Positions 4,986-34,479 of a stretch of DNA of 64,000 nt are shown piece by piece. This stretch comes from Candidatus Omnitrophota bacterium (GTDB taxonomy: Bacteria; Omnitrophota; Gorgyraeia; Duberdicusellales; 4484-171), in assembly GCA_021735655.1 (NCBI GenBank), contig JAIPGM010000001.1, positions 192,001-256,000 of the forward strand, in the 5' to 3' direction. Each line of letters begins with the position of its first letter. Positions within the stretch are counted from its first letter, which is position 1. A program made the position numbers and the translations under genes. Below the pieces are notes generated by a model. That model was not told where the DNA came from. It saw only the letters and a program-made list of their open reading frames with translations, and did no database searches.

Positions 4986-6293
4986 TTGAAATTACCAATG
5001 AAAAGAAAGAGAATCCTGATTGTCGGAGGCGGGTTAGCCGGCTTAAGTGCTGCCTATTTTTTGGGTAAGCAGGGCCAAGCGGTATCTGTCTTTGAAAGAG
5101 AGAAAGAATGTGGAGGATTGTGCCGTTCAATAAAAAAGAATGGCTTTACCTTTGATTTTGGAGGTCATCTTCTGCACTTCCGAAGAAAGGATATTTTTCT
5201 GCTGGTCAAGAGACTTCTTAAGGGCAATTTGCTAAAACATAAAAGAAGTGCCTGGGTTGATACTCATCAACGTTTATTGCCTTATCCGTTTCAGGCTAAT
5301 CTTTTCGGTCTGCCTAAAAATATAGCTGCAGAATGCCTTCAAAACTTTATTGAGGTTAATACTAATGGACAAAAAACTGCTAAAACCAATAATTTTCGGG
5401 ATTGGATAGATAGCAATTTTGGTAAAGGGATTGCCAGGCATTTTATGGTTCCTTATAACCTTAAATTTTGGAAAATGCCCTTAGAAAACCTTTCTTATGA
5501 ATGGGCAGAGCGATTCGTAGTTCTTCCTTCGCGTAAAGATGTTGTTGAGGGGGCCATTGGAAGCCGAAGTAATAATTTAGGGTATAATTCCTTTTTTTGG
5601 TACCCTAAGCAAGGCGGAATAGAAGAGTTGATAAAGTCTTTTTCCGGTAGGGTGGATGATATTTTTTTAAATTCCGAAGCAGCAGAAATCGACCTAAAGA
5701 ATAAAGCAGTAAGGTTTAAGAATGGTTCCAAAGAGAAATTTGACATTTTAGTTTCTACCATACCTTTACCCGAGCTTGGCAAAATTATTAAAGGATTGCC
5801 AAAAGATATTTTATCTGAATTTAGAAGATTAAACTGGCTATCTATTTATAATATAAATCTAGGGGTAAAAGGAAATATTAGGCCAGGACAACACTGGATT
5901 TACTTTCCGAGAAAAGATAGTTCCTTTTTTAGAGTCGGATTTTTTAATAACTTTTCATCGCAGCTTGCGCCACGAGGCATGAGCTCTTTATATGCCGAAG
6001 CTTCATATCTCGGTGGTTCTGCGATAAGTAAGTCAAGGCTTGCCACGGCGATAAAAAAAGATTTAGCCAGAGCCGGAATTCTCGGAAAGGATAATTCTAC
6101 TTGTTGCGAATACACGAATGATATAGATTACGCTTATCCGATTTATGATAAGAATTATAGGACAGCCAGGCATAGAATTTTTAAGTTTTTGTCGAAAAAC
6201 AAGGTTGTTTCGGTCGGCCGTTATGGCGGTTGGCAATACCTATCTATGGAGGATGTTATTTTGGAGGCCCAAGCTACGGCTAGGAGTATATAA
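4986..6293 (+). CDS. FAD-dependent oxidoreductase, UDP-galactopyranose mutase (Glf)-like / amine-oxidase fold
   Basis: It has an N-terminal Rossmann dinucleotide motif ILIVGGGLAGLSAAYFL...ERE..GG. FGGHLLHF is comparable to the Glf GxHIFH block. The C-terminus YPIYDKNY...VGRYGGWQYLSMEDVI is comparable to the Glf YP...GRL..YKYYDM block. Confidence 0.5.
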   Translation: MKLPMKRKRILIVGGGLAGLSAAYFLGKQGQAVSVFEREKECGGLCRSIKKNGFTFDFGGHLLHFRRKDIFLLVKRLLKGNLLKHKRSAWVDTHQRLLPYPFQANLFGLPKNIAAECLQNFIEVNTNGQKTAKTNNFRDWIDSNFGKGIARHFMVPYNLKFWKMPLENLSYEWAERFVVLPSRKDVVEGAIGSRSNNLGYNSFFWYPKQGGIEELIKSFSGRVDDIFLNSEAAEIDLKNKAVRFKNGSKEKFDILVSTIPLPELGKIIKGLPKDILSEFRRLNWLSIYNINLGVKGNIRPGQHWIYFPRKDSSFFRVGFFNNFSSQLAPRGMSSLYAEASYLGGSAISKSRLATAIKKDLARAGILGKDNSTCCEYTNDIDYAYPIYDKNYRTARHRIFKFLSKNKVVSVGRYGGWQYLSMEDVILEAQATARSI

Positions 6294-7076
6294 ATGAAGT
6301 TTAGAAAAAGAATAAAAAATGTATTTTTCCATAAATCCATTTTGTGGGAGATGTCGATTAAGCAGCTTAAGGCAAAGTATTCTGGTTCTATGTTGGGTAT
6401 TTGGTGGGCAGTGGCGACCCCTCTTATTCTGGCTGTAAGTATTAATTTTATTTTTACTAATGTATTTAAGGTGGGTATTGAAAATTTTACCTTTTTTGTT
6501 TTATCAGGGATAGTCCCTTGGCTATTGTTCTCTAATGCTATAAACGAAGCCGCCGGGTCTTTTATTGCCAATTTTTCGGTATTAAGGCAGGCCATTTTTC
6601 CTCGAGAGTTTGTTCCAATGACTTCGATTATCTCTAATTTTTTAATTTTTCTGATCGGTTTATTGATTCTGCTTCCTTTTTTTATTGTTTCTAATCCGAG
6701 GGTAATTACGGTTTTGCCGTTTCTGTTGGTAGTTTTATTTTTTTATTTATTTTTTCTTGTCGGGCTTGCTATGATTTTTTCATCTTTAAATGTTTTCTTT
6801 CGTGATGTATCCCATCTTTTAGCTATCGGGTTAATGGTTTGGTTTTGGGTTACGCCTATTTTTTACTCTTTGGATATGTTACCGGCTTCATTTCGCTGGA
6901 TCTGCTTAAGTAATCCAGTTACTTACTATGTAGTTTCTTATAGATTAATTTTGTTTGAAGCGAAGCCGTTATCCCTTCCAATTTTGTTAACTTTATTTTT
7001 TATTTCCTTTACGTCATTCATCGTTGGTTATGCCTTTTTCCTTAAAAATGAAAATAGTTTATTAAAACGAGTATGA
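6294..7076 (+). CDS. ABC-2 type polysaccharide exporter permease (Wzm/TagG-like)
   Basis: ILWEMSIKQLKAKYSGSMLGIWWAVATPLI is the canonical ABC-2 (Wzm) N-terminal motif. It has six predicted TM segments. Its ATGA overlap with the downstream ATPase indicates translational coupling. Confidence 0.8.
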   Translation: MKFRKRIKNVFFHKSILWEMSIKQLKAKYSGSMLGIWWAVATPLILAVSINFIFTNVFKVGIENFTFFVLSGIVPWLLFSNAINEAAGSFIANFSVLRQAIFPREFVPMTSIISNFLIFLIGLLILLPFFIVSNPRVITVLPFLLVVLFFYLFFLVGLAMIFSSLNVFFRDVSHLLAIGLMVWFWVTPIFYSLDMLPASFRWICLSNPVTYYVVSYRLILFEAKPLSLPILLTLFFISFTSFIVGYAFFLKNENSLLKRV

Positions 7077-10000
7077 GGATAATAGAATTTAATAATGTTT
7101 GGGAGAAGTACCGGATTAAATTTGTAAGGGACAGGAAAGTTTCTTGGGAAGAAATTTGGGCTTTAAGCAATATAGACTTTACAGTTAATAAGGGTGAAGT
7201 TATAGGAATAATTGGTGAAAATGGTGCCGGAAAAACTACTTTATTAAAATTAATCGCTGGCATGTTTGCTCCGGATAGAGGAGATATATCTGTTCGAGGA
7301 AAGGTATCGGTATTGATGGAGCTAGGGGCTGGTTTTAATCCTGAGTTTACCGGGAGGGAAAATGTTATTCTTAATGCCCGTATCTACGGGTTAGATACAG
7401 ACATAGTTGAACAGCAAATGGAGAAAATCGTCGAATTTGCTGATATTGGTAAATTTATCGATGCCCCGGTTAAATATTATTCACAGGGCATGTATACCCG
7501 TTTAGCATTTGCTTTGGCTATATTTGTAGAGCCGGATATTCTTTTAATTGATGATATTCTATCGGTAGGCGATGCTGACGCACAAAAGAAATGTATTGAT
7601 AAAGTATTCAAGTTAAAGGAATCGGGAAAGACTATTATTTTAGTAAGTCATGACATGCATATGATAAGTAGGCTGTGCGATCGAGTTATCCTTTTGGATA
7701 AAGGTAAACTTATCGACAGAGGTAATCCCGCTGAGATTATCTATCATTACCTAGAGACTGTTGGGGATAAAAGTGGTATTGCAGTTTTAGAAAAGGATAA
7801 ATTAAGATTAGTATTTAATAATGGGAGAATTACTTTTAGCTACGCAGGAGTGCCCCTTACTAAAGAATTTGGTGGTTATGTGGCTTATTTTGTTTCTTCC
7901 CTTGGTAGTTGGCTTTCTTCTTTTGATTTATTCTGGAAGATAAGCCATTTTTCAGCTAATAAAATTGTTGCTGAGGGAGAATATAAAGGTAGAGGGCCTT
8001 CTCAGGTTTGGGTTTTGGAATTTTCTGAAAGCAGATTATGTTGGCAGGTGAAGATAAAAGACAAAGATGTAAGAGATCCGCATATAGATTTATTGCTTAA
8101 CCCTCAATATAAAAAATGGTTAAATTTAGACCAAGGCGGGGGTTTTCCTTCCTTTATTTCTAAATCTACTTGGCAGAATTTGGGTTTAGCTAATTTTCCC
8201 CAAGCTATGGTCGGTTTAACCGCAGACTTGGAAGTTAAGAGTTGTCCTTCTTTTGTTTTGACCGCAGAGGATAAGGATACTCAGATTAGACTTTTCAATA
8301 CAGGTTATGACCAGGAAGGACGCATTATTCAGTTGGATTTAAAGTTAGCCGGAGACAATCTATTTTTTCTTAAAATATTTCCTGAGAAAAATATATTTGA
8401 AGAGTATATTAAAAAAGAGAAAGATATATTTGAAGAGAGCATTAAAAAAGTAAACCAGCAACTAGCTTTAGAGAAAGAAGCGCAACAGGTCAGATTGCGG
8501 GATTTATCAACTTTTGCTTGGGGCAATTTTAGTCTTTTTGCTGATAAGGAGGAAAAGTCTTTAAAGCTATACTTTAAGAATAAAGAAGTCACCAAAAAAG
8601 AAGGATTCCATATATCTTTTTTGATCAATAATATCTGGTACGATACTACTTCTGCGGATTGGCAGATAACTAAAGAAAAGGAAGTTTTCATAATTAAACT
8701 ATTTTGGAAAGTGTTTGATTTTAAACAAACTTGGAAATTTTCAGTTAAGAATGGGGGGCTTCTTTGGAATTTAAATTCCATCGTAAAGAAAACCTTCAAT
8801 CCAGAGATTATGAAAATCGGTTTACTATTAATAAGTGAGTACAAAACTTTCTTTTGCGGTTATCAGCAGGAAGATTTTCCAGATAAATTCAGCTCTTGGC
8901 AGGATATGTCTCTCAAAGACCCGAAAGCAAGATGTTTTGGTTTAAGAAAACAAACATCGTTACCGGCGATTGCTTTAGATAACAATGAAAGTTTTGATTG
9001 TATTGTACAGAACAGCGATGAAGAAAATTCCTGTCGGGTACTACAGCTAAGCCTTCCCAGGCAAAGTTTTATTCAAAAAAATACATCTTTTGGTGTTCAA
9101 CTTAGCCTGCTTGAAGAGGAAAGTCCCATTGATCATTACCTTAAACAAGAAAGACAGGACCATTTACTTAGGCAACAAGAAGCAAAAAGATTGCTTAGCG
9201 CTAAAAGTACTATATCAAAAGATAATTTTCGTTTTTTTGTTGATAAGGAAGAAAAATCTTTAAGGATATACTTTAAGGACAAAGAGATTACTAAAGGGGC
9301 CGGTCTACATAGTTCATTATGCGTTTTCGGGAAGTGGTTTCATAGGGAGGAAACTAGGTGGCAGACAAAAAAGATTTCCGATGAAGAAGTAGTTTTAATT
9401 TTAAGTTATGACTCACTACCGCTTTTACAAATTTTTTCTCTTAGTTTCAAAAGAAAGGGTATTCTAAGAGTTAAAGTCGAAATGGAAATAAGCGAGCAGA
9501 TTCATTTGTCTGATCATCATCTGAAGCTTGAGCTTCAAGATGACTATAATAATTGGGATACTGGCTATGAGCAAGGCAATTTTTTTATTGATCGATATGT
9601 GGATGAGATCGGTCCGATTAGACTAAAAGATAATAGAATTTCGAATATACTATTGAGATCAAACAATGAAAGTAAAATTCCAAAAATGCTTTTGAAAATT
9701 ATTTCCCAAATTGATAGACGAATTATAAACCTTTATAAGCGAAGAAGTGAAGATGGAGAATGCGTTGGCCTTTGCTCTCCTTTGATTGTATCTAAAAAAG
9801 AAGAACTGGTTAAACCTGGAAAGTATACTTATTTCGAAGGAGAAATCATATTTGGAAAAGAAGCTAAATTAGAAAGAGAAGCTTCTAGGGTAGATATTGT
9901 CGAGCTTAAAAAAGATGATATAAGATTTGTTTTTGATCGTGGCAGAGTTAAAATTTTCTGGAAGGAAGAAGAGTTAACTTCGGAATTAGGAATTTATACC

Positions 10001-10540
10001 TCATTGCGTTCAAAAGGAATCTGGCAGGATTCTTACCAGGCAGCTTGGGAAATAGAGCATAAAGCTAAGGAAAAAATTGTGGCAACTGGAGGTTGGCCTT
10101 ACCTTCCCATTTCTCAAACATGGAAATTAGAGTTGCTCGGCAAGAATTCAATATCTTGGCAAGTTGACATGGAGATTTACGGTGAAGTTAATTTAGAGAT
10201 AGAACAGGCTAGTGTAATGATTTCTTCTAAATACAGGAATTGGGAAATTCCCAGTTTTAACAGCGGTAAATTTCTTGATGTCTATGTTAAGAATCACGAT
10301 ATTCTACCTTTTAGATTTTGGTCTGGGGATGCAAACAAGATAGCTGCTGTTTCAGAATGTTTTCCCTCGATAATTTTTAAAAGCGAAAGACAAGATAAAG
10401 AAATGCAGGCGGTTATAGAAAATACAGGTATTTTATATAGGGCAAGGTTGTTGCAGTATCAAAGTACAAGTAATAATGCAATTTTGCCAGGTAAATATCC
10501 ATACTTTAGGGGGATGATAGAAATTGAGACTAGGAAGTAA
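7073..10540 (+). CDS. ABC-2 exporter ATP-binding protein (Wzt/TagH-like) with ~900-aa C-terminal extension containing four repeats of a ~100-aa module
   Basis: The N-terminal 230 aa form an ABC ATPase (Walker A GENGAGKTT, LSVGD, Walker B ILLIDDILSVGD, H-loop SHD). The remaining sequence contains four related modules beginning near nt 7800, 8540, 9220 and 9900 (for example FADKEEKSLKLYFKNKEV...W...W and FVDKEEKSLRIYFKDKEI...). Confidence 0.8.
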   Translation: MRIIEFNNVWEKYRIKFVRDRKVSWEEIWALSNIDFTVNKGEVIGIIGENGAGKTTLLKLIAGMFAPDRGDISVRGKVSVLMELGAGFNPEFTGRENVILNARIYGLDTDIVEQQMEKIVEFADIGKFIDAPVKYYSQGMYTRLAFALAIFVEPDILLIDDILSVGDADAQKKCIDKVFKLKESGKTIILVSHDMHMISRLCDRVILLDKGKLIDRGNPAEIIYHYLETVGDKSGIAVLEKDKLRLVFNNGRITFSYAGVPLTKEFGGYVAYFVSSLGSWLSSFDLFWKISHFSANKIVAEGEYKGRGPSQVWVLEFSESRLCWQVKIKDKDVRDPHIDLLLNPQYKKWLNLDQGGGFPSFISKSTWQNLGLANFPQAMVGLTADLEVKSCPSFVLTAEDKDTQIRLFNTGYDQEGRIIQLDLKLAGDNLFFLKIFPEKNIFEEYIKKEKDIFEESIKKVNQQLALEKEAQQVRLRDLSTFAWGNFSLFADKEEKSLKLYFKNKEVTKKEGFHISFLINNIWYDTTSADWQITKEKEVFIIKLFWKVFDFKQTWKFSVKNGGLLWNLNSIVKKTFNPEIMKIGLLLISEYKTFFCGYQQEDFPDKFSSWQDMSLKDPKARCFGLRKQTSLPAIALDNNESFDCIVQNSDEENSCRVLQLSLPRQSFIQKNTSFGVQLSLLEEESPIDHYLKQERQDHLLRQQEAKRLLSAKSTISKDNFRFFVDKEEKSLRIYFKDKEITKGAGLHSSLCVFGKWFHREETRWQTKKISDEEVVLILSYDSLPLLQIFSLSFKRKGILRVKVEMEISEQIHLSDHHLKLELQDDYNNWDTGYEQGNFFIDRYVDEIGPIRLKDNRISNILLRSNNESKIPKMLLKIISQIDRRIINLYKRRSEDGECVGLCSPLIVSKKEELVKPGKYTYFEGEIIFGKEAKLEREASRVDIVELKKDDIRFVFDRGRVKIFWKEEELTSELGIYTSLRSKGIWQDSYQAAWEIEHKAKEKIVATGGWPYLPISQTWKLELLGKNSISWQVDMEIYGEVNLEIEQASVMISSKYRNWEIPSFNSGKFLDVYVKNHDILPFRFWSGDANKIAAVSECFPSIIFKSERQDKEMQAVIENTGILYRARLLQYQSTSNNAILPGKYPYFRGMIEIETRK
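7790..10250 (+). repeat. Four tandem in-frame copies of a ~100-120 aa protein module inside the Wzt C-terminal extension
   Basis: Read directly in the translation. Each unit has the shape hxhxF(x)...G-h-x-F/W...W...W-x-h-x-h with conserved Trp spacing. The same module recurs in the B12-rSAM genes at 10524 and 18468. Confidence 0.5.
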
Positions 10541-12890
10541 TTATCAAAAGTTTCGAAATCATCTAAGCGCGGGGGGTTTGATTTATGCTGTCTATAGAGG
10601 TATAAAATATTTTATTTATTTGCCGCAGAGGAGAAATTGTAAGCGTAAACAAAAACAAATAATGCTTATTAACGGCAAGCTAAGAATAGATTATTTGGAT
10701 AAAGGGATTGGCATGTCTTGGAATAATTCCCCAATTACCGAAAATGTACACTTTAATGTCGGGCTTAATACTTTAGGATTATGGACAGATTCTTCAAAGG
10801 CTCATTGGCAAATTATGGATCAAGGAGAAGATTATCTCAAGGTCAAGGTAATTTTCCAGGAGTTACCTTTGAGCCAGAATTGGCTAATAAAGTTAGAGGG
10901 CGACCACCAAATATACTGGAAGATAGATTTAGAAATAGAAGAGCATCTTCATATTGATGAATTCCGGATGGTTTGCGGAGTTAACCGTAAGTATAAAACT
11001 TGGATTAATAGCTTTCAGGAGAAAGTTTTTCCCCGGCTTAATCAATATTGGCAAGATTTATGTCTAGATAATGTTTTTACTTCTTTTGTGGGAGTAAGGT
11101 TTCCTACTGGAAACACTCTCTTGCCTTCATTGGTATTTGAATCTTGCGATGATAGCAGAGTTTTTTCCCCCCTTGTTCAAAATACCCCTTTAGATATTAA
11201 TACCCATATTATAGGATTTAGAAAGATTAATCACGAAGATGAAAGGGATTATCCGCCGGGTTGTTATCAGCTTTTTGCTGGCAGAATAAAATTATACGAA
11301 GACAATTATCTGTTAGATAAGAAAATAGAAGATGTGCGTCAAGATTACTTTAAGTCTACAATGAAACGAGTAAGTGCTATTTCCGAAGCCAAAGAATTAA
11401 AAGTTATGCTAGTAAATCTACCTTGGCAGAATAACGGGGTAGGGGGAGTAAGGGCTGGCTCTCGTTGGCCGCACATGAAAGATTTAAGCGAAGGAAATTA
11501 CTTACCATTTCCTTTTTTTCTTGCTTACGCCACCTCTCTTTTAGAAAAAAACGGTATCAAGGCTGACTTAGTTGATGCTATCGCAGAATGTTTATCCGAA
11601 GATAAGTTTATCGAGCGGCTTTTAGGAGCTAATTGTAATGTTTTAGTTGTTGAGACCTCTGTGCCTTCATTTTACCATGATCTGCAGCTATTAAGGAAGT
11701 TATCAAATTTTGGTTTTACAATAATTTTATGCGGTCCAAATTCTGAAATTTATAAATTTGAATTTTTAAAAGAAAATAGATTCATTAATTATGTTTTATT
11801 CGGAGAATATGAATTTACGCTTTTGGAATTGACGAAGATTATTTCTAAGGGCAAAAAAGATCTTACTTTTGTAAAAGGCCTTATTTGGAGAGATGAAAAA
11901 GGTAATATTATTAAGAATCATCCTCGGGAGCCTTTTGATATAAATTGTTTACCTTGGCCTCACAGGGATAAGCTTCCGATGGAAAAATATTGGGATTTAC
12001 CTGGTGATATTCCTCATCCTTCGGTTCAAATAGTTGCCTCGCGGGGTTGTCCTTTTGGTTGCAGTTTTTGCCTTTGGCCTCAGATTCTTTTTGGCGGAAA
12101 GACCTATAGAGTGAGGGACGTAACTGATTGCATTGATGAAATGGAGTACTTAGTAAGAGAAAAAGGCTTTAAATCAGTCTATTTCGATGATGATACTTTT
12201 AATGTCGGAAAAGCTAGGATGCTTGATTTTTGCAATGAGATTATAAAGAGAAAGCTAGATAATGTCCCCTGGGCAATTATGGCTAAAGCCGACCTTATGG
12301 ATGAGGAGATTTTAGATAAGATGAAGGAGGCTGGGTTACATGCGGTAAAGTATGGAGTAGAGAGTGCTTCGCAAGAGTTAGTGGATAGGTGTGGAAAATG
12401 TCTAGACCTTAAAAAAGCAGAGCAGATGATTAAATATAGCCAACATTTAGGCATAAAGGTTCATTTGACTTTTTCCTTTGGTCTTCCTGGAGAAACTAAG
12501 GAGACAATTAAAAAAACAGTTGATTATGCTTTAAAATTAGATCCACAGTCAGTTCAATTTTCAATTATTACACCTTTTCCAGGCACAACTCTTTTTGAAG
12601 AGCTAGATAAAAAGGAAAAAATTCTTACTAAGAATTGGTCTTTGTATGATGGTCATTATAGTTGTGTTTTCCAGCCGGATAACCTTTCTTTGGGAGATTT
12701 AGAAGAATCAAAACAACATGCTTACAGGTTGTGGCTAGATTATCAAAGGAAAAAAAGAGGATTGCTGGGTGATCTAAAAAGGTTCTATAATTATGCACAA
12801 AAAGATGGTTTAGGCAATGCAGTTAAGAAGACTAAAGATTACTTGAATTATTCTATTTTTCATAGAAAGAAGTTTATCGGTAAGATATGA
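10524..12890 (+). CDS. B12-binding radical SAM (class B) enzyme with N-terminal copy of the Wzt repeat module
   Basis: TTG start at 10524 with AGGGGGA 9 nt upstream. The repeat module spans nt ~10660-10950. The B12-binding-like region is KVMLVNLPWQ...LAYATSLLEKNGIKADLVD. The rSAM CxxxCxxC is ASRGCPFGCSFC at ~12046-12075. Confidence 0.75.
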   Translation: MRLGSNYQKFRNHLSAGGLIYAVYRGIKYFIYLPQRRNCKRKQKQIMLINGKLRIDYLDKGIGMSWNNSPITENVHFNVGLNTLGLWTDSSKAHWQIMDQGEDYLKVKVIFQELPLSQNWLIKLEGDHQIYWKIDLEIEEHLHIDEFRMVCGVNRKYKTWINSFQEKVFPRLNQYWQDLCLDNVFTSFVGVRFPTGNTLLPSLVFESCDDSRVFSPLVQNTPLDINTHIIGFRKINHEDERDYPPGCYQLFAGRIKLYEDNYLLDKKIEDVRQDYFKSTMKRVSAISEAKELKVMLVNLPWQNNGVGGVRAGSRWPHMKDLSEGNYLPFPFFLAYATSLLEKNGIKADLVDAIAECLSEDKFIERLLGANCNVLVVETSVPSFYHDLQLLRKLSNFGFTIILCGPNSEIYKFEFLKENRFINYVLFGEYEFTLLELTKIISKGKKDLTFVKGLIWRDEKGNIIKNHPREPFDINCLPWPHRDKLPMEKYWDLPGDIPHPSVQIVASRGCPFGCSFCLWPQILFGGKTYRVRDVTDCIDEMEYLVREKGFKSVYFDDDTFNVGKARMLDFCNEIIKRKLDNVPWAIMAKADLMDEEILDKMKEAGLHAVKYGVESASQELVDRCGKCLDLKKAEQMIKYSQHLGIKVHLTFSFGLPGETKETIKKTVDYALKLDPQSVQFSIITPFPGTTLFEELDKKEKILTKNWSLYDGHYSCVFQPDNLSLGDLEESKQHAYRLWLDYQRKKRGLLGDLKRFYNYAQKDGLGNAVKKTKDYLNYSIFHRKKFIGKI

Positions 12891-15800
12891 AGAATTATCT
12901 AGTCACCTGGGATAAAATATGTAAGGGTATAACTAAGCAAAAGAAGATATTTTGTGGCCCACACACTGTCCAAATAGATTTAACCGACAAATGCAATAGT
13001 AGCTGCGTTGCTTGTTGGATTCACTCACCTTTAGTTGAGGAAAAAAAATCATTTCCAGAAGGCAAAAAACAACTTTCTTTCGAATTAGTTAAAAGTTTGA
13101 TTAATGATTTGTCTGATTTAGGAACTCAGGAGGTAATTTTATCCGGATCAGGGGAGCCATTTTTATATCCAGAAATAAAAGAGGTTATAAAAAATATAAA
13201 GTCAAAAAATATGTATCTAAATATAATTACCAATGCTTCTCTTATCGATGAGGAAATGGCAGAGCTGTTAGTAAAATGCAAAGTCGATTTAATTACTGCC
13301 AGCATATGGGCCGGTGATGCTGAAACTTACAGCTTAACTCATCCAGGAAAAAGCGAAGCTGATTTCGAAAAAATAAAGAGTAACTTAAAGAAATTGGCTT
13401 TTTATAAGAAGCGGTATGGTTCATTGGAGCCGCATTTAAAATTATATAATGTAATTTGCAGTAAAAATTATAGAAATATTGAGGAAATGGTTGATTTTGC
13501 TAAATCAATGGATGCCGATTCTTTAGAGTTTCAGGTTGTTGATATAATTTCTGGGAAAACAGATCATTTGGCCCTGAAAGATGCCTATAAGAGCGAGATA
13601 GTAAATCAATTGGACAATATAAGAAAGCGAAAAGATTTAATATCTTTTAATACGCCTAAAGAAATGCCGATAGATAGTTTTATTGATGAGGAATTTTTTG
13701 ATTTTGGAAAGATTTGGAAAAATTACAAAAACGGCTTTTGCGTTTCTCAGTGTAGCAGTTCTTTGGTTTGCAAAAAAGATCACGAGATAAAAGATAAGAG
13801 AATTATTGTTTCAGAGTCGACATCAACCAGAGGGACTCGTCCGGTTGCATTTTGGTATAAATTTGAAAATAATATATGTAAAACTTGCGAGGAAAATATT
13901 GAGTGCGTTGACGATGAAAATGCAGTGAGCATAAAATTGTTGAATATGTTGGGTATTGGTTCATTTTTGAGGAGATTATTGCGCTCTGATTTAGAGAGAG
14001 GGATATATGAAAAGCAAATAAATAGCATCCCATGTTATATAGGGTGGTATTATTCTCGTATTTTAGCTAATGGTGATGTTATCCCTTGTTGCAAGGCAGG
14101 TAAGTTATCTTTAGGTAATATTAAGAAAAGAACTTTTTCTAAAATTTGGCATTCCTATCGATATAAAAAGTTTCGGCTTAACGCTAAGAATTTAACTAAG
14201 CATCATAAGTATTTTTCTAACATCAATTGCATCAAGAGTTGCGATAATTGGGGAGTAAATTTAGAAATCGACGGGAGATTGAAGGAATTTGAAAATAAAG
14301 AGAAAAAAAAGGAGCCTTACCTTTTAACTATCAAGAATAGCATTATAAAGGGTAGGGTTGAGGATACGCTTGCAAAAATTACTCGTAATATTAAACCGAA
14401 TAATTTAAAAAAGAGATATTCAGAAATTTTAGGTGTATTTGATGGTGAACATGGTTATAAAGGTCCATTCCACGTTCAGATAGACTTGACTAATGATTGC
14501 AATAACACTTGCATTGCTTGTTGGTGCAATTCACCTCTTTTGAAAGAGAAACGATTATCGGCTGATAAAAAAAATCAATATTTACCTTTAGGAATGGTAA
14601 AGGAATTATTGGATGAGATTACTAATATGGGTGCTACTGAGGTCTATTATTCAGGAAGTGGTGAACCATTTATGCATCCAGCGATTATGGAGATTCTCGA
14701 TTATTCAAAAAAGAAAGGTTTAATCTGTCACGTAAATACTAATTTTACTCTTCTTAATCAAGAAAAGATAGATTGCTTAATCGATATGGAGGTTGACCAT
14801 CTTACGGTGAGTGTTTGGGCGGCTACGGCCGAAACTTATGCAAAAACTCATCCTAATAAAACCGAGGCTGACTTTCAACGGATAAAAGAGAATTTACTAT
14901 ATCTGAACTTACGAAAGAAAAGTAAGCCCTGTATAAAAATTTATAACGTTATTTTTAACATGAATTACCTTGAAGTTGAGAAGATGCTTGATTTTGCCGT
15001 TGAGACTAAATCTGAATCTTTAGAATTTACCCTTGTAGATACTATGCCTGGGGCTACTGATATGCTTGCTTTAAATCAAGGACAGTTGGATGAGCTTAAT
15101 GATTTATGCAGGAAAATAAAATTAAAATTAGATAAAAATTACATAATTAGGAGTAAAAAGGTATTGCTTTTTCAGTTTGAGCAGTTTTTGAGAAGGATTT
15201 CTGTTTCTCAAGATGTCCAGGAGGCAAAATACGATAGAGGTGTTATTGATAGTATGCCTTGTTATATTGGTTGGCTTTTTGCACGAATAATTCCTAACGG
15301 GGAAGTTCATTCTTGTCTTAAGGCGCATAGAATTCCGACCGGTTCTTTGTATAAAGATAGATTTTTCGAAATTTGGAATAGTGCTAAACAGGCACATTTT
15401 CGTAAAAAGACTTTAGTTTGCAGAAAAGATGATCCTTTCTTTAGGTTGATTGGCAACGATCCCAATACAAAGGAGGCCGGTTGTTACAAGAGTTGCGATG
15501 ATATCGGGAGGAACACTTGGATGCATAACAAGATGAATATGTTGACGCCACTGGGAAGGCTGACACTTAAGTACGTAGCTAAAGCCATGAAGCCTCTAAG
15601 GAGGCTTAGGTCCAAAAACGATAATTTTAAGAATTACCACAGTGACCCTTTAATTGCCGGGGTCATCCATGGCCGGAAGGCTTTTTTGGGACCCGAACAA
15701 GTAGTAATTGATCCGACCAATAAGTGTAATTTGCAATGCATTTCTTGTTGGATGTATTCGCCATTATTGAAAAAAAATAAACCAGCTTTGGATTTATTGA

Positions 15801-16741
15801 AACAAGAATTATCTAAAGAGGTACTTATTAAATTAATCGATGATTTAGCTGATTTAGGAACAAAGCGTATTAGGTTCACTGGTGGCGGAGAGCCTTTTAT
15901 GCATAAAGATTTGATGACAGTAATAGAGCATGCCCGAAAAAAGAATATTTTAGTTGCGGTAACTACGAACTTTGGTTTGGTCTCTAGACAGGATATTCTT
16001 AGATTGTGTGATTTGGGATTGGAGGAGTTATGCATAAGCATTTGGGGTTCTTCATCGAGAGTCTACAATTTGGTTCATCCTGGTACCGGTGAGGATTATT
16101 TTAAGAAATTAAAAGAAAATCTTTCTTATTTGAAAGGGCTAAATAAGTATAAACCGCGGACTACCTTTGCTAATGTAATCATGAATAATAATTTCACTGA
16201 TTTTGAAGCAATGTATGATTTTGCTTTAGATCATGGAGCTGATGCAGCCTATTTTACCTTGGTTGATATTATTTCCGGTCAAACCGATAAGTTCTTGTTG
16301 AATAAAGATGAACGAAGCGAATTGCTAAAGAGAGCTCTTATGGTTCAGCAACGAAATAAAGATAACAAGCTGCAGCTTGAATTTTTTGAGAATTTTCTAA
16401 AAAGAGTATCTAGTTTCCAAGGAGACTTTGAAAAAGGAGAATATGATAAATCGAGCATTGATCAATTGCCTTGTTATGCCGGCTGGATTTTTTCAAGAGT
16501 TTTGGCAGACGGAAGCGTTGCGCCCTGCTGCCGGGGGGTTAAAAAAATAATCGGCAACATCAAGACTAAATCTTTTAAAGATATTTGGTTTTCGCCCGAA
16601 TACAATGAGTTTAGAGTTAAAGCAAAGTATTTATCGAAAAGCAACGCTTACTTTAAGGATATAGGCTGTATAAAAGAATGTGATAATTTGATGCATAATC
16701 AGGAGTTTCATAAAAGAATAAATCTAAAAGAAGGAGGTTGA
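12887..16741 (+). CDS. Triple tandem radical SAM/SPASM(twitch)-type fusion protein (three complete rSAM domains in one 1284-aa polypeptide)
   Basis: Three CxxxCxxC motifs are present: DKCNSSCVAC (~12992), NDCNNTCIAC (~14509) and NKCNLQCISC (~15730). Each is followed about 330 aa later by a Cys-rich auxiliary-cluster region of the form PCYIGW...NGDVIPCC...GNI...IW...C..C. The ATGA overlap with the upstream gene indicates coupling. Confidence 0.8.
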   Translation: MKNYLVTWDKICKGITKQKKIFCGPHTVQIDLTDKCNSSCVACWIHSPLVEEKKSFPEGKKQLSFELVKSLINDLSDLGTQEVILSGSGEPFLYPEIKEVIKNIKSKNMYLNIITNASLIDEEMAELLVKCKVDLITASIWAGDAETYSLTHPGKSEADFEKIKSNLKKLAFYKKRYGSLEPHLKLYNVICSKNYRNIEEMVDFAKSMDADSLEFQVVDIISGKTDHLALKDAYKSEIVNQLDNIRKRKDLISFNTPKEMPIDSFIDEEFFDFGKIWKNYKNGFCVSQCSSSLVCKKDHEIKDKRIIVSESTSTRGTRPVAFWYKFENNICKTCEENIECVDDENAVSIKLLNMLGIGSFLRRLLRSDLERGIYEKQINSIPCYIGWYYSRILANGDVIPCCKAGKLSLGNIKKRTFSKIWHSYRYKKFRLNAKNLTKHHKYFSNINCIKSCDNWGVNLEIDGRLKEFENKEKKKEPYLLTIKNSIIKGRVEDTLAKITRNIKPNNLKKRYSEILGVFDGEHGYKGPFHVQIDLTNDCNNTCIACWCNSPLLKEKRLSADKKNQYLPLGMVKELLDEITNMGATEVYYSGSGEPFMHPAIMEILDYSKKKGLICHVNTNFTLLNQEKIDCLIDMEVDHLTVSVWAATAETYAKTHPNKTEADFQRIKENLLYLNLRKKSKPCIKIYNVIFNMNYLEVEKMLDFAVETKSESLEFTLVDTMPGATDMLALNQGQLDELNDLCRKIKLKLDKNYIIRSKKVLLFQFEQFLRRISVSQDVQEAKYDRGVIDSMPCYIGWLFARIIPNGEVHSCLKAHRIPTGSLYKDRFFEIWNSAKQAHFRKKTLVCRKDDPFFRLIGNDPNTKEAGCYKSCDDIGRNTWMHNKMNMLTPLGRLTLKYVAKAMKPLRRLRSKNDNFKNYHSDPLIAGVIHGRKAFLGPEQVVIDPTNKCNLQCISCWMYSPLLKKNKPALDLLKQELSKEVLIKLIDDLADLGTKRIRFTGGGEPFMHKDLMTVIEHARKKNILVAVTTNFGLVSRQDILRLCDLGLEELCISIWGSSSRVYNLVHPGTGEDYFKKLKENLSYLKGLNKYKPRTTFANVIMNNNFTDFEAMYDFALDHGADAAYFTLVDIISGQTDKFLLNKDERSELLKRALMVQQRNKDNKLQLEFFENFLKRVSSFQGDFEKGEYDKSSIDQLPCYAGWIFSRVLADGSVAPCCRGVKKIIGNIKTKSFKDIWFSPEYNEFRVKAKYLSKSNAYFKDIGCIKECDNLMHNQEFHKRINLKEGG

Positions 16742-16747
16742 AGTTAA

Positions 16748-17566
16748 TTGAATATGGCGGGTAAAGTGGGTGCTATCGATTTTCAATTATTTTTAAGAAA
16801 AATCAGCCTTGAGCGTTTTTTTCAAAGTTTTTATTATTTTAAATGGTTGGAATACCCTTTAGTCTACAATAACCTTGAACTAAAAGCAGGTGAACAGTAT
16901 CTCGATATCGGTAGTGGAAAGTCCATTTTTCCTCTATTTGTCGTAGCGAAAAATAACTGTAACGTGCACGTATTTGATGATCAGTCCATTATAAAAGACA
17001 GTATTACTTATTATCAGAGCAATATTAGAAAGATGGGGTTATGCAATATTTCTGGAAAAAATTTCTTGATTCACGAAGCTACAGAGAAAGGACAGCTCGA
17101 TTTTCCTGATAATTACTTTGATAGAGTTTCTTGTATTTCGGTATTAGAGCATATTAAGGGCAATGGTGATAGTGTAATGATGCAGGAAATATCAAGAATT
17201 TTAAAAAAAGGCGGGAGGGCTGTGATAACTTTTCCGTTTAATGGCAAGGATTATATAGAAGAAGATAACCCAGAAGGGGTAGGATATTTCCAGCGGAAGT
17301 ATAGTGTAGCGGCGATTAAAGAGCGGATAATTGATCCAGCCAATTTAAAGGTTAAGAAGGTTATATATTTTGGAGAACGTTATATAAGTTTTGGGGAACA
17401 ATACTTGCAGAATAAATTTAGAAAAATAAATTGGCTCATACCTTTATTCGCGCCTATTTTATGGAGGGTGTGCCATTATTATGAAGGTGAATATCGCAAT
17501 TTTTATGAGCGAGCAATAGATAAAAAAGGTACTGGCGTAGCGTGTATTGTTTTTGATAAGATTTGA
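16748..17566 (+). CDS. Class I SAM-dependent methyltransferase
   Basis: Motif I is YLDIGSGKSIFPL. The post-I acidic residue is VFDDQ and the motif II-like block is RVSCISVLEHI. RBS GAAGGAGG lies at 16732-16739. Confidence 0.7.
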   Translation: MNMAGKVGAIDFQLFLRKISLERFFQSFYYFKWLEYPLVYNNLELKAGEQYLDIGSGKSIFPLFVVAKNNCNVHVFDDQSIIKDSITYYQSNIRKMGLCNISGKNFLIHEATEKGQLDFPDNYFDRVSCISVLEHIKGNGDSVMMQEISRILKKGGRAVITFPFNGKDYIEEDNPEGVGYFQRKYSVAAIKERIIDPANLKVKKVIYFGERYISFGEQYLQNKFRKINWLIPLFAPILWRVCHYYEGEYRNFYERAIDKKGTGVACIVFDKI

Positions 17567-17591
17567 ATAAGCAAAATTGTGAAAATTTAAG

Positions 17592-18464
17592 ATGCTGACT
17601 TTTCCTAAATATCTTTCAATCCAAACTACTTCTCTATGCAATGCTTCTTGTGTATTTTGTCCCTATAAAGATATAAAAGATGTAAGGTTCAAGACAATAA
17701 TGGATAGAGGCCTTTATGAAAAAGTTATTAATGAATGCAGTAACCATAAAGATATTGAATGCATTATAGTTTACATGAATAACGAGCCCTTAACTGATCC
17801 TTGCATAGTTGAGAGAATAAATTATGCCAAAGATAAAGTTCCTTGGGCTAGTGTGCATATCTTGACCAATGGAGCCTTACTTAGCGATGACCTGGCTGAT
17901 AAACTTATTGATTCTCGTCTAGACTGGATCGGGGTAAGCTTTCATGGGATCAGAAAAGAAACTATAGAGCGGGCAATGGGCATTCCTTATGAGATCAGCT
18001 TGAAGAGAATAACCAATTTTATCGAAAAAGCAAAAGCGAAGAAAAATATAAAGAACTATTTTATGCTAACTTTTTTGCGCCATGTATATTTGACTCCTCA
18101 AGAGCGGGAAGAGGCTATTAGTTTTTGGAGAAAACTGGGGATAGAAAGAATAAGCTATTTTGACGGGCCCATATCTCGGGCCAGCAATGTAACTAATTTA
18201 CCAAAAGTCTACCATCAAGGCAAGATCAGTGGATGTAATTCTATCTGGGCTGATGAGATGCTTCATGTGGTAGAGGATGGTAAGGTTATTTTGTGCTGCA
18301 TGGATTGGCGAAGAGAAGTAATTTTAGGCGACCTAAACAAACAAAGCATCCATGAAATATGGAATGGCAAAAGAAGAAAGATTTGGGATATGATTCGTGG
18401 AACAGGAGAGGTTCCTGAAGGATTTTTGTGCCGCAGGTGCGAAGAGGCTAAGCAAGAGATTTAA
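17592..18464 (+). CDS. Radical SAM enzyme with C-terminal SPASM/twitch-like Cys cluster (same family as the triple fusion)
   Basis: The motif is SLCNASCVFC (~17634-17663). The C-terminus SGCNSIWADEM...DGKVILCC...LGDLNKQSIHEIW...CRRCEEA matches the auxiliary-cluster pattern of the 12887 and 39797 proteins. Confidence 0.75.
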   Translation: MLTFPKYLSIQTTSLCNASCVFCPYKDIKDVRFKTIMDRGLYEKVINECSNHKDIECIIVYMNNEPLTDPCIVERINYAKDKVPWASVHILTNGALLSDDLADKLIDSRLDWIGVSFHGIRKETIERAMGIPYEISLKRITNFIEKAKAKKNIKNYFMLTFLRHVYLTPQEREEAISFWRKLGIERISYFDGPISRASNVTNLPKVYHQGKISGCNSIWADEMLHVVEDGKVILCCMDWRREVILGDLNKQSIHEIWNGKRRKIWDMIRGTGEVPEGFLCRRCEEAKQEI

Positions 18465-18467
18465 AGG

Positions 18468-20636: not shown

Positions 20637-20646
20637 AAATTTACAT

Positions 20647-23600: not shown

Positions 23601-23805
23601 GCTTGAAAATCTCGGCTTATTGGAAAAATCCCTGAATTCTTTGCAAGAGTTACCAGAAAAAGAAGAATTTAAGCTAAAAAGAAGAAATATTAATAAATGG
23701 TTAATCCTGATTTTTGTTTCTTTTTACACATTTTTTTATATTATTTATTTTTGGGTATTTATGATTTTTAGAAATAAAGTTCTCTTGGGGGGAAGAAAAA
23801 AGTGA
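20647..23805 (+). CDS. Double B12-binding radical SAM fusion (two complete class-B rSAM units) with C-terminal transmembrane helix
   Basis: Unit 1 has LLVGLAPWGVDTPPLALACL... followed by EFSRGCVGSCPFC (~21331-21369). Unit 2 has LLINLPPWGQENPHIGVGYV... followed by EWSRGCRSKCAFC (~22861-22890). The C-terminus WLILIFVSFYTFFYIIYFWVFMIF is a predicted TM anchor. Confidence 0.75.
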   Translation: MNLTDKILLVGLAPWGVDTPPLALACLSTSLRNANISTEVFDMNIELYNAVNEQSKYLWSMNYSHWWREPERYSDIRKELDVYIEPLIKKILSFKHKIVGFSLSTNCSDLLLEEIVKRIKTSDPDKVIILGGVSISINEQRNDLIRKLRTQIDYCVIGEGEEVLVELVKKIASNKLEDIGRLPGIIKKGEFEGVKQRAEIKDFNSLPFPTFEEFNLKKYKAPVSLPMEFSRGCVGSCPFCDFKSVSSAFKSKAPYYIISQIKFYKEKYNIIHMSLSDPAVNGDIRVLEQICDLLIEANLSVNINSLAIPRKEMTLELLERMKKAGFYRLEYGLESGSNKILKAMRKIFTVEIAEKVIRDTYQAGIKTYLYLIVGYPQETEDDLNQTKDFLNRNRQYISMIKSINPLYVMAGSEIFCNPDKYQVTLPAKDSDKRWFIGDKNTYSLRKARIFELKKVVASLNIPFTEEAESLEFTGNSLNKQQGIVVGGGNPYDKDESTTENKIMSRGYAEQKTDKYRDSFLLINLPPWGQENPHIGVGYVCSYLRHKGFKPSVLDLNKKFYLSQPNFQMLWHVENKNFWSNQDSFPLILKLFKKEIDKAINDILSSGCSLLGFSVVDPKEKITIEFIRRIKRRDKSKKIILGGPATSTYEQRKIFLDNVEEEIDTFVIGEGEQTLFKVVDRILKKKELKGIEGCCSRDNGKWVCRESGEIVSLDKIPFPTYEEFDLSLYGKSFLVEWSRGCRSKCAFCKNYRLFSSYRSKSAESVMKELRYHKQKYNVDEFTVVDNILNGDLNTLNDICDRIIKENLQIRWTGQIAPRKDMNFEYFQKMKQAGCFKLQIGLESGSNKVLKLMHKSFTAEISEKNIIFAKKAGIETEIFTMIGFPGEAEKDFQETYDFIKRNAKYLDTIKSINTLHLIAGTEIYEQRERFKIKPLPQENWHYLWETYEGNTYKVREERAKRILGLACDLKIKVMETNIIEGKEQKVLLENLGLLEKSLNSLQELPEKEEFKLKRRNINKWLILIFVSFYTFFYIIYFWVFMIFRNKVLLGGRKK

Positions 23806-26107: not shown

Positions 26108-26785
26108 TTGGGTTATCTTGTTGAGACGCATCAACTAACTAAAATATTTAAGCCACACAAAGGCATTGGTGAGAAGCTTAGAGGCTCAGCAGCTCGAACC
26201 GAGGTAAAGGCTGTAGATAGAGTTAGTTTTTCTTTAGAAGCAGGTTCCACCATGGCTATTATGGGTCCTAATGCTGCCGGAAAAACAACTCTTTTAAAAC
26301 TAATCGCTTCTTTAATTATTCCAACCAGTGGTCGGATTTCGGTTAAAGGTACAATTGGTTTGGTTACCGGGGAAGAGAGGAGTTTTTACTGGCGCTTGAG
26401 CGGTCAGCAGAATTTAGAGTTTTTTGCTGCTTTGTACGGTTTGGGAAAATCCGAAGCCAAGAGGCGAATCCAGCAGTTGGTTGAATTGCTGGGCATCGAG
26501 GATATGAGTGATGTTCTGGTTCAAGAGTATTCCTCGGGATACAAACAGAGGCTGGCTATTGCTAGAGGATTATTGCATGATCCGGATATCTTGCTTTTAG
26601 ATGAACCCACTAAAAATTTGGATTCTTCTCACGCTGAACATTTAAGAATTTTTATAAGAGAAAACTTAGGTAAAGAAAGCAAAAAGACAGTTATTTTTAC
26701 TAGTCATAACTTAGAGGAAGCTTCGTTTTTAGCGAATAAATTAGCAGTAATGGATAAGGGTTGCCTAAGGCAACAGGATAGTTGA
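26108..26785 (+). CDS. ABC transporter ATP-binding protein (ABC-2 exporter type)
   Basis: TTG start with AAGGAG 9 nt upstream. Walker A is GPNAAGKTT, the signature is SSGYKQRLAIARG, Walker B is LLLDEP and the H-loop is TSHN. Confidence 0.8.
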   Translation: MGYLVETHQLTKIFKPHKGIGEKLRGSAARTEVKAVDRVSFSLEAGSTMAIMGPNAAGKTTLLKLIASLIIPTSGRISVKGTIGLVTGEERSFYWRLSGQQNLEFFAALYGLGKSEAKRRIQQLVELLGIEDMSDVLVQEYSSGYKQRLAIARGLLHDPDILLLDEPTKNLDSSHAEHLRIFIRENLGKESKKTVIFTSHNLEEASFLANKLAVMDKGCLRQQDS

Positions 26786-26786
26786 T

Positions 26787-34442: not shown

Positions 34443-34479
34443 TTATAGTGATAATATTATAGTAGACAGGAGATTAGCT

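What the first reader, a model, noticed from the sequence alone, without database searches (positions are those of the whole stretch)
7073..10540. Wzt-type ABC ATPase whose C-terminal extension is four copies of a ~100-aa Trp-rich module
Seen in sequence: after a canonical 230-aa ABC-2 ATPase, the remaining ~900 aa consist of four related modules starting near nt 7800, 8540, 9220 and 9900. Modules 2 and 3 begin almost identically (F[AV]DKEEKSL[KR][LI]YFK[ND]KE[VI]TK). Established knowledge: in E. coli O9a-type systems the Wzt C-terminal domain is a carbohydrate-binding module that recognises the chain-terminating modification of the polymer before export. Inference: a fourfold array suggests multivalent recognition of a terminally modified polymer, possibly one methylated by the rSAM enzymes. 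The module is not one I can assign to a known CBM family.
Basis: partly seen in the sequence, partly recalled or inferred. Interest (0 to 1): 0.7.

Follow-up and report, generated by a model that had tools for sequence, protein, structure and literature searches.

The report
Exporter ATPase carrying four sugar-binding-fold modules
A polysaccharide-exporter ATPase from an uncultured Omnitrophota bacterium carries four copies of an uncatalogued 210-aa domain with a sugar-enzyme fold, and the same domain is fused to the neighbouring tailoring enzymes, so it probably acts as a shared handle for one cell-surface polymer.

Summary
ORF 7073-10540 (1155 aa) is a Wzt/TagH-class ABC ATPase (residues 1-230) followed by four related modules. 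Each module is about 200-215 aa, not about 100 aa, and Trp enrichment is mild (2.6% vs 1.6%).

The same module is fused to two B12-radical-SAM enzymes in the operon (six copies in the window). Elsewhere it is fused to radical SAM/SPASM enzymes, GT-C glycosyltransferases and a signal-anchored sulfatase-family enzyme, or it stands alone. The family has 665 representative clusters; all named members are Omnitrophota. The operon order FAD enzyme, Wzm, Wzt with 2-6 modules, then a module-bearing radical SAM gene recurs in 34 species.

Best reading (0.55): a polymer-binding, probably glycan-binding, targeting module shared by the exporter and the tailoring enzymes. Recognition of a terminal cap is untested. 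I rate it a new variant of a known kind.

The parts
6294..7076 (+). Wzm-like ABC-2 permease (260 aa); its stop overlaps the Wzt start codon
   Evidence: Pfam ABC2_membrane E 4.9e-12. Best NCBIfam hit is galactan export permease Wzm/RfbD, E 1.6e-14, below cutoff. Present upstream of the Wzt gene in the related loci.
7073..10540 (+). Whole Wzt-type ATPase ORF, 1155 aa: NBD plus four modules
   Evidence: An identical protein is deposited from a Candidatus Omnitrophica MAG on a 341-kb contig.
7073..7762 (+). Nucleotide-binding domain, aa 1-230
   Evidence: Pfam ABC_tran. NCBIfam TagH / Wzt-RfbE best hits. PDB A. aeolicus Wzt E 4e-64, then TarH and TagH. Foldseek TM 0.85 and rmsd 3.0 A to 6m96.
7778..8380 (+). 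Module 1, aa 236-436, all-beta
   Evidence: Profile E 5.8e-67. Strand pattern in the full-length model. Orthologous to module 1 of homologues at 33-45% identity.
8387..8497 (+). Linker helix 1, aa 439-475, charged; contains a 33-nt tandem duplication at 8384-8449
   Evidence: DSSP helix 439-475. Repeat D2. 54% charged residues plus Gln, with only a weak heptad pattern.
8510..9112 (+). Module 2, aa 480-680
   Evidence: Profile E 9.3e-68; model; 39-49% identity to module 2 of homologues.
9122..9205 (+). Linker helix 2, aa 684-711
   Evidence: DSSP helix 684-711.
9209..9853 (+). Module 3, aa 713-927
   Evidence: Profile E 2e-68; model. Its first ~30 aa are homogenised with module 2.
9896..10528 (+). 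Module 4 (terminal), aa 942-1152; the most conserved position across species
10524..12890 (+). Module-bearing class-B radical SAM enzyme (788 aa): module at nt 10671-11306, B12/rSAM core at aa ~296-737
   Evidence: Module E 1e-34. Pfam Radical_SAM at 504-668. Best NCBIfam hit is HpnJ-like, E 8.5e-70, below cutoff. A module-bearing gene follows Wzt in 31 of 33 related loci.
18468..20636 (+). Second module-bearing B12-radical SAM enzyme (722 aa): module at nt 20001-20552, C-terminal
   Evidence: Module E 2.8e-32. Pfam B12-binding at 84-163 and Radical_SAM at 231-394.
4986..6293 (+). FAD/NAD amine-oxidase-family oxidoreductase (weakly UDP-galactopyranose-mutase-like); conserved first gene of the operon
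   Evidence: Pfam Amino_oxidase and NAD_binding_8. NCBIfam PRK07208 and UGM hits far below cutoff. Syntenic in most related loci.
12887..26062 (+). Rest of the co-directional tailoring and assembly genes: triple rSAM-SPASM fusion (12887-16741), SAM methyltransferase (16748-17566), rSAM-SPASM (17592-18464), double B12-rSAM fusion (20647-23805), two GT4/GT1 glycosyltransferases (23802-26062)
   Evidence: Pfam. The same gene set, fused or split, follows Wzt in the related loci.

Best explanation
The four C-terminal modules are substrate-targeting domains of a previously uncatalogued family with a galactose-mutarotase-like beta-supersandwich fold. They most likely bind the lipid-linked surface polymer, probably a glycan, that this operon builds, tailors and exports.

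Shown here: the fold; the four-fold array joined by two long helical spacers; the presence of the same domain on the operon's B12-radical-SAM enzymes; and its presence elsewhere on rSAM-SPASM enzymes, GT-C glycosyltransferases and a signal-anchored sulfatase-family enzyme.

Inferred: in the Wzm-Wzt homodimer, eight modules hang below the channel and capture the polymer multivalently. This raises its local concentration at the transporter entrance, the role the single jelly-roll CBD plays in classical Wzt. The enzyme-borne copies bring the tailoring enzymes to the same polymer. The four positions are old, non-identical paralogues conserved position by position across species. Each may therefore read a different feature, possibly different radical-SAM or methyl marks, so that export is coupled to completed tailoring.

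For: Transporter class. The NBD is closest to A. aeolicus Wzt, TarH and TagH, and a Wzm-like permease is adjacent.

Promiscuous fusion typical of a targeting module. Six copies lie in the window on three proteins. There are 665 representative clusters. Among the top hits, 102 of 163 are NBD plus 2-8 modules. Other fusions are GT-C PMT_2 plus 2-4 modules, rSAM-SPASM plus modules, and NBD plus modules plus rSAM-SPASM in one chain. One GT-C fusion lies in the same cluster type. A sulfatase-family enzyme has an N-terminal hydrophobic anchor followed by at least 2 modules. Free-standing module ORFs occur in L006, L010, L025 and L028.

Conservation. Synteny holds across 34 species-level genomes, and a module-bearing gene follows Wzt in 31 of 33 loci. 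Positional orthology is 30-56% identity, against 18-30% between paralogues.

Conserved positions are aromatic or polar (T, G, W, W, Y, F, N), with no catalytic His/Glu/Asp set.

Precedent. Wzt CBDs bind the polymer cap, and a separately expressed CBD restores transport to a CBD-truncated WzmWzt in vivo (PMC9445017, read).
Confidence: 0.55

Rival explanations
1. Cap reader, as in E. coli O9a. The modules specifically recognise a chain-terminating modification, for example a methyl group, at the non-reducing end, and the four copies only add avidity.
For: Classical Wzt C-terminal domains bind methylated or phosphorylated caps, and export depends on them (PMC9445017). The operon holds a SAM methyltransferase (16748-17566) and B12-radical-SAM enzymes that are often methylases.
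Against: The fold and family differ from the Wzt CBD. The tailoring enzymes carry the same module and must bind the polymer before it is finished. The four positions are conserved as distinct paralogues at 18-30% identity, which does not fit four readers of one cap. In known systems the terminator enzymes do not share the transporter's CBD (own knowledge).
Confidence: 0.15
2. Protein-protein docking scaffold. The modules bind each other or partner proteins and assemble the radical SAM enzymes onto the transporter as a metabolon, with no direct contact with the polymer.
For: The same module is on both the transporter and the enzymes of one operon. Some genomes fuse the NBD, modules and rSAM-SPASM into one chain, as if proximity were the point. 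Helical spacers separate the modules. Mutarotase-like folds serve non-sugar roles in YidC P1, PnsB2 and a PBCV-1 capsid protein.
Against: The module also sits on a signal-anchored sulfatase-family enzyme and C-terminal to GT-C membrane glycosyltransferases. These are expected to lie on the other side of the membrane from Wzt and the radical SAM enzymes. Wzt module number (2-8) does not track the number of module-bearing partners in the loci.
Confidence: 0.15
3. Recognition of a non-glycan substrate, either a peptide (RiPP-like) or a lipid, exported by an ABC-2 transporter. The radical SAM/SPASM and B12-rSAM enzymes would be peptide or lipid maturases.
For: The best NCBIfam neighbours of the radical SAM proteins include RiPP C-methyltransferases (280 bits against a 281.85 cutoff, summed over two domains), sactipeptide and PqqE-type maturases, and HpnJ and ladderane-lipid enzymes.
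Against: No small precursor ORF lies in the tightly packed operon between 4986 and 27590. The module is an all-beta supersandwich, not a PqqD/RRE fold. The NBD and permease are of the polysaccharide/teichoic-acid exporter class. GT4, GT2 and GT-C genes are conserved parts of the cluster, and the module is fused to GT-C enzymes.
Confidence: 0.1
4. The modules are enzymes (mutarotase, epimerase or lyase-like) that act on the polymer, not binding domains.
Against: No Pfam Aldose_epim or other family hit appears even at E 10. Among 50 modules the only positions at least 90% conserved are T, G, W, W, Y, F and N, with no His/His/Glu catalytic set. In most of the matched GH and PL structures this fold is, to my knowledge, an accessory domain (chains listed).
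Confidence: 0.05

Closest known systems
WzmWzt O-antigen ABC transporters with a C-terminal carbohydrate-binding domain (E. coli O9a, Raoultella terrigena/K. pneumoniae O12, Aquifex aeolicus; Pfam Wzt_C PF14524)
   Same: The NBD is clearly of this class (E 4e-64 to A. aeolicus Wzt). It is paired with an ABC-2 permease. The extension directly follows the NBD. The genes lie in a glycan-assembly context. The likely role is the same: holding the polymer at the transporter.
   Different: The extension is a different domain family and fold: a ~210-aa, 18-strand mutarotase-like supersandwich, against a single jelly-roll domain per subunit that forms a strand-swapped dimer (PMC9445017). There are four copies here, and 2-8 across the family, instead of one, and they are separated by long helices. 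The same domain is also fused to the tailoring enzymes. There is no Pfam Wzt_C hit.
Galactose mutarotase-like / 'glycoside hydrolase-type carbohydrate-binding' beta-supersandwich superfamily (aldose 1-epimerases; accessory domains of GH2, GH38, GH97, GH15, GH174, PL families; OpgG/OpgD)
   Different: Sequence identity is only 6-13% and no sequence-level relationship is detectable. The epimerase catalytic residues are not conserved. The setting as tandem arrays on an ABC ATPase and on radical SAM enzymes was not found in my literature searches.
Carbohydrate-binding modules appended to GT-C glycosyltransferases, e.g. the C-terminal CBM-like domain of mycobacterial EmbC (own knowledge, not tested here)
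   Same: Family members P0043, P0104, P0138, P0143 and P0177 are GT-C (PMT_2) enzymes with 2-4 C-terminal modules. This is the same layout: a membrane GT followed by a soluble polymer-binding domain.
   Different: The domain family is different. The topology of the Omnitrophota fusions was not established.
TagH/TarH teichoic-acid exporter ATPases
   Same: Best NCBIfam hits for the NBD (E 1.5e-60 and 6.3e-52). PDB TarH E 1e-54.
   Different: All scores are far below the equivalog cutoffs. The full-length NCBIfam TagH model (NF010065, 549 positions) matches the query only over residues 7-245.

Membership tests
Wzt/TagH-class ABC-2 polymer-export ATPase | NBD sequence and structure closest to Wzt/TarH/TagH rather than other ABC classes | tested here: met
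   PDB phmmer: A. aeolicus Wzt 4e-64, TarH 1e-54, TagH 1e-49. Foldseek TM 0.85 to 6m96. NCBIfam top hits are TagH and Wzt/RfbE, all below equivalog cutoffs.
Wzt/TagH-class ABC-2 polymer-export ATPase | Adjacent Wzm/TagG-type ABC-2 permease gene | tested here: met
   ORF 6294-7076 has Pfam ABC2_membrane, and its stop overlaps the Wzt start. Conserved in the related loci.
Wzt/TagH-class ABC-2 polymer-export ATPase | Exports a polyprenyl-phosphate-linked glycan or polyol-phosphate polymer | not testable with these tools
   Only context is available: GT4, GT2 and GT-C genes in the cluster.
Wzt C-terminal carbohydrate-binding domain (Pfam PF14524, jelly roll) | Sequence match to Wzt_C | tested here: not met
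   No Pfam hit for any module at E up to 10. PDB profile searches returned no Wzt chain.
Wzt C-terminal carbohydrate-binding domain (Pfam PF14524, jelly roll) | Jelly-roll fold superposable on solved Wzt CBDs | tested here: not met
Wzt C-terminal carbohydrate-binding domain (Pfam PF14524, jelly roll) | Binds the non-reducing terminal cap of the polymer | not testable with these tools
   Needs binding assays.
Galactose mutarotase-like beta-supersandwich superfamily | Fold | tested here: met
Aldose 1-epimerase (Pfam PF01263) | Sequence match and conserved catalytic His/His/Glu (the residues probed by the L. lactis GalM mutants H96N, H170N and E304Q) | tested here: not met
   No Pfam hit. The positions at least 90% conserved in 50 modules are T, G, W, W, Y, F and N only. 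Structure-based residue equivalence was not checked.
CAZy-type carbohydrate-binding module | Demonstrated carbohydrate binding by the isolated, non-catalytic domain | not testable with these tools
   Only indirect support: the fold, and fusion to several enzyme classes of one glycan pathway.
RiPP recognition element (PqqD-like) | Winged-helix/three-strand PqqD fold or Pfam PqqD match | tested here: not met
   The module is all-beta with 18 strands and has no Pfam hit. A genuine PqqD ORF elsewhere in the window is detected readily.

The most novel reading that the evidence does not exclude
The module is a phylum-specific 'address tag' for one surface polymer, used on both sides of the inner membrane. 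Cytoplasmic radical SAM tailoring enzymes, the ABC exporter, and periplasmic GT-C and sulfatase-family enzymes would all find the same polymer through it. The ordered, non-identical array on Wzt would work as a multi-checkpoint reader, each position verifying a different radical-SAM-installed mark, or as a length ruler that licenses export only of fully tailored chains. That would be a new logic for quality control in ABC-dependent glycan export, and the first link between extensive radical SAM chemistry and a Wzm/Wzt pathway.
Probability: 0.2. Interest if true: 0.8.

Novelty: new variant of a known kind. Interest (0 to 1): 0.62.

Why it matters
Known ABC-dependent O-antigen exporters recognise their cargo through one small jelly-roll domain per subunit that reads a terminal cap. 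Here the same job appears to have been taken over by an unrelated, uncatalogued domain family. It is arrayed 2-8 times per subunit and is shared with the enzymes that tailor the polymer.

If binding is confirmed, three things follow. First, it defines a new carbohydrate-binding module family, with 665 representative clusters in metagenomes. Second, it shows convergent solutions to substrate selection in type-V ABC exporters. Third, it points to an unexplored, heavily radical-SAM-modified envelope polymer that is conserved across Omnitrophota, a widespread phylum known almost entirely from metagenome-assembled genomes. The module profile is also a practical probe for finding the whole pathway in metagenomes.

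Tried and rejected
- Sequence assignment of the module failed. Pfam at E up to 10, NCBIfam at E up to 1, and PDB profile searches with 4 and with 50 modules gave nothing meaningful.
I repeated it with terminal-module orthologues only, so that scan sees only close relatives.
- The afdb50 fold library was unavailable, so no AlphaFold-DB neighbours were examined.
- A crude Kyte-Doolittle TM count with positive-inside scoring for the GT-C fusions gave inconsistent helix numbers. I rejected it as evidence for topology.
- Heptad analysis of the two linker helices was weak (a/d hydrophobic fraction 0.5-0.6). A coiled-coil dimerisation claim is therefore not made.
- A self-BLAST of the whole protein reported only the identity hit. 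Segment-against-segment BLAST was needed.
- Literature searches for Wzt with tandem CBMs, mutarotase-like with Wzt, Omnitrophota with radical SAM, and Omnitrophota with polysaccharide and ABC transporter found no prior description. Subscription-only papers are not covered.
- Model coordinates are not exposed to scripts, so conserved residues could not be mapped onto the surface.
- A RiPP reading of the operon was considered and set aside, because no precursor ORF lies within 4986-27590. A separate RiPP-like trio lies further downstream.


Full report
**What is at the coordinates**

A single ORF runs from 7073 to 10540 on the + strand and encodes 1155 aa. Its ATG overlaps the stop codon of a 260-aa ABC-2 permease gene at 6294-7076 (Pfam ABC2_membrane). 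Residues 1-230 are a canonical ABC nucleotide-binding domain. Pfam places ABC_tran at 31-161, and Walker A GENGAGKTT, signature YSQGM and Walker B ILLIDD are visible in the translation.

The closest solved relatives of the NBD are A. aeolicus Wzt (E 4e-64), TarH (1e-54), TagH and mycobacterial RfbE. The best NCBIfam models are TagH and galactan Wzt/RfbE, all below their equivalog cutoffs. The protein is identical to a deposited 'ABC transporter ATP-binding protein' from a Candidatus Omnitrophica MAG on a 341-kb contig, so it is not an assembly artefact.

**The repeat**

Segment-against-segment BLAST of the C-terminal 920 aa shows four mutually related units: E 1e-4 to 1e-19, 22-32% identity, alignments up to 233 aa. 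A profile built from 50 modules scores each copy at about E 1e-67. Boundaries from the structure model are aa 236-436, 480-680, 713-927 and 942-1152.

Trp is only mildly enriched: 2.6% against 1.56% in neighbouring proteins, and module 3 has three Trp. Two Trp columns are nevertheless at least 90% conserved over all 50 modules. The near-identical starts of modules 2 and 3 are real, as a 95-nt direct repeat with 75% identity at 8525/9224.

**Six copies, three proteins**

The same profile hits two other ORFs of the operon:
- the N-terminus (aa ~50-261, E 1e-34) of the B12-type radical SAM protein at 10524-12890;
- the C-terminus (aa ~512-695, E 2.8e-32) of the B12-binding radical SAM protein at 18468-20636.

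Nothing else in the six-frame translation of the window scores better than E 0.8.

**No known family by sequence**

There is no Pfam hit at E up to 10, including Wzt_C. There is no meaningful NCBIfam hit at E up to 1. PDB profile searches with 4 or 50 modules returned no credible hit.

**Fold**

Module 4, modelled with the 50-module alignment, gives pLDDT 93.9 and pTM 0.91. It is an all-beta domain of 18 strands.

No Wzt CBD entry appears in either list, although several are in the PDB. In the full-length model (pLDDT 84.3, pTM 0.46) all four modules have the same strand pattern. Long helices at 439-475 and 684-711 join modules 1-2 and 2-3, and a short loop joins modules 3-4. Full-length A. 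aeolicus Wzt superposes on this model at 3.0 A over the NBD alone, but at 10-13 A when the alignment is stretched over its CBD. That is no better than MalK with its unrelated regulatory domain.

The extension is therefore not a Wzt_C-type domain.

**Family and architectures**

Against 1.84 billion representative proteins the module profile finds 665 proteins at E up to 1e-3, and 319 at E up to 1e-30.

Among the 163 sequences in hand, 102 are NBD plus 2-8 modules: 21 with 2, 44 with 3, 22 with 4, 12 with 5, and single cases with 6 and 8, plus one interrupted by an rSAM-SPASM match. Others are:
- GT-C (PMT_2/GT39-like) membrane glycosyltransferases with 2-4 C-terminal modules;
- rSAM-SPASM enzymes with 3-4 modules;
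- single chains combining NBD, modules and rSAM-SPASM (P0150, P0036);
- a sulfatase-family enzyme with an N-terminal hydrophobic anchor and at least 2 C-terminal modules (P0160, P0212).

Every member that carries a source organism name is Candidatus Omnitrophota.

**Conserved operon**

A scan of one genome per GTDB species with terminal-module orthologues returned 34 loci. By record title they are mostly Omnitrophota MAGs; ten carry NCBI labels of uncultured Planctomycetia or Planctomycetales, and three others are labelled 'uncultured Mariniplasma sp.', 'uncultured bacterium' or 'bacterium'.

Local annotation shows a recurring gene order: FAD oxidoreductase, Wzm, Wzt with 2-6 modules, a module-bearing B12-rSAM gene, one to three rSAM-SPASM units (fused or split), another B12-rSAM, and a GT4. 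In four genomes the module next to the B12-rSAM is a free ~300-aa ORF instead of a fusion. A module-bearing gene follows Wzt immediately in 31 of the 33 loci that have downstream sequence.

A GT-C-module fusion (P0177) lies in the same kind of cluster, after the radical SAM, GT4, sulfatase, GT2 and methyltransferase genes. In the window the surrounding 60 kb also holds GT4, GT2, two PMT_2 GT-C genes, an MBOAT and a phosphodiesterase/sulfatase-family gene.

**Evolution of the array**

Each window module is most similar to the module at the same position in homologues (30-56% identity). Paralogous positions share only 18-30%. The array is therefore old, and its positions are individually maintained.

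Superimposed on this, the first ~32 residues of modules 2 and 3 are 34-91% identical within a protein, against 20-30% for the rest. In three lineages the figure is 88-91% and the shared sequence is lineage-specific, which indicates gene conversion. P0002 has a fifth module that is a recent copy of module 2. The first linker helix also contains a 33-nt tandem duplication. Such exchange explains the variation in copy number.

**Interpretation**

The facts fit a substrate-targeting module best. These facts are a carbohydrate-associated fold, no catalytic signature, aromatic/polar conserved positions, and fusion in variable copy number to five functionally different partners of one envelope-polymer pathway, plus free-standing forms. 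This is how CBMs behave on CAZymes.

The known Wzt CBD provides the functional precedent. It binds the polymer cap, is essential for export, and a separately expressed CBD restores transport to a CBD-truncated transporter in vivo (PMC9445017).

I therefore propose that the eight modules of a Wzt dimer capture the lipid-linked polymer at the cytoplasmic face of Wzm-Wzt, and that the enzyme-borne copies deliver the tailoring enzymes to the same polymer.

Two points favour polymer binding over a purely cytoplasmic docking role. The module occurs on a signal-anchored sulfatase-family enzyme, and it occurs C-terminal to GT-C enzymes. The topology inference rests on family knowledge, however, because my hydropathy test was inconclusive.

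The enzymes share the module and the four positions are distinct paralogues, so a single-cap reader is the less likely version.

The chemistry of the polymer is also open. The radical SAM proteins resemble peptide, cofactor and lipid maturases as much as sugar-modifying ones, and none reaches a family cutoff. No precursor-peptide ORF lies in the operon.

**Comparison and novelty**

The NBD and permease belong to the Wzm/Wzt-TarGH class. The membership features testable here are met. The extension fails both testable features of the Wzt_C family, namely sequence and fold. It belongs by fold only to the galactose-mutarotase-like superfamily, and it lacks the epimerase signature.

I found no description of mutarotase-like arrays on Wzt, or of this Omnitrophota operon, in the searchable literature. 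I rate it a new variant of a known kind: a Wzt exporter with a substrate-recognition extension, built from a new domain family, multiplied, and shared with the tailoring enzymes. Confidence in the binding-module explanation is 0.55.

Noticed in passing
window 32995-34653: A separate RiPP-like trio. It comprises a 97-aa PqqD-family ORF (32995-33288, Pfam PqqD E 4e-11), a radical SAM enzyme with a Cys-rich C-terminal region (33288-34442), and a 57-aa ORF (34480-34653) ending ...GIAGTTAGCGCCGCCCCW, with 7 Cys in the last 10 residues. The short ORF is a candidate precursor peptide.
   Followed up: partly
window 26108-27590: A second ABC-2 exporter pair lies directly after the two GT4 genes: an ATPase of 225 aa with no C-terminal extension, plus a permease of 267 aa. 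The region therefore encodes two ABC-2 systems, one with the module array and one without.
   Followed up: no
window 12887-16741 and 20647-23805; loci L003, L006, L024, L026, L034: Radical SAM enzymes are fused into giant chains here: three rSAM-SPASM units in 1284 aa and two B12-rSAM units in 1052 aa. The same units are separate ~400-490-aa genes in other Omnitrophota genomes. This shows lineage-specific fusion and fission of tailoring enzymes.
   Followed up: partly
window 8525-8619 / 9224-9318, and homologues P0003, P0008, P0014: The first ~32 residues of modules 2 and 3 are homogenised within each protein. They are up to 88-91% identical with lineage-specific sequence, while the rest of the modules are 20-30% identical. 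This indicates intragenic gene conversion, which probably drives copy-number change (P0002 carries a recent extra copy of module 2).
   Followed up: partly
window 8384-8449: A 33-nt tandem duplication (88% identity) sits inside the first inter-module helix and encodes EKNIFEEYIKK/EKDIFEESIKK. The spacer length itself is evolving by duplication.
   Followed up: no
window 9896-10528 (module 4), aa ~1068-1085 of the protein: The terminal module has a long loop, DEYTxxYDILPFRFWYG in the consensus, that is invariant or nearly so across 11 species. It is the lowest-confidence stretch of the model (pLDDT ~67) and has little regular secondary structure. It is a candidate functional loop for ligand or NBD contact, specific to the last position of the array.
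   Followed up: no
window 50745-53534: Three adjacent genes hit PP-loop ATPase families (Asn_synthase/NAD_synthase), AIR carboxylase, and Ni_insertion (E 2.6e-143). The set resembles LarE/LarB/LarC and suggests synthesis of the nickel-pincer cofactor next to the envelope-glycan region.
   Followed up: no
loci L001, L004, L010, L017, L019, L025, L027, L032-L034: Ten genomes that carry the orthologous operon are labelled 'uncultured Planctomycetia/Planctomycetales' in their NCBI titles. Gene content and similarity match the Omnitrophota loci, so these are probably coarse taxonomy labels on MAGs.
   Followed up: no
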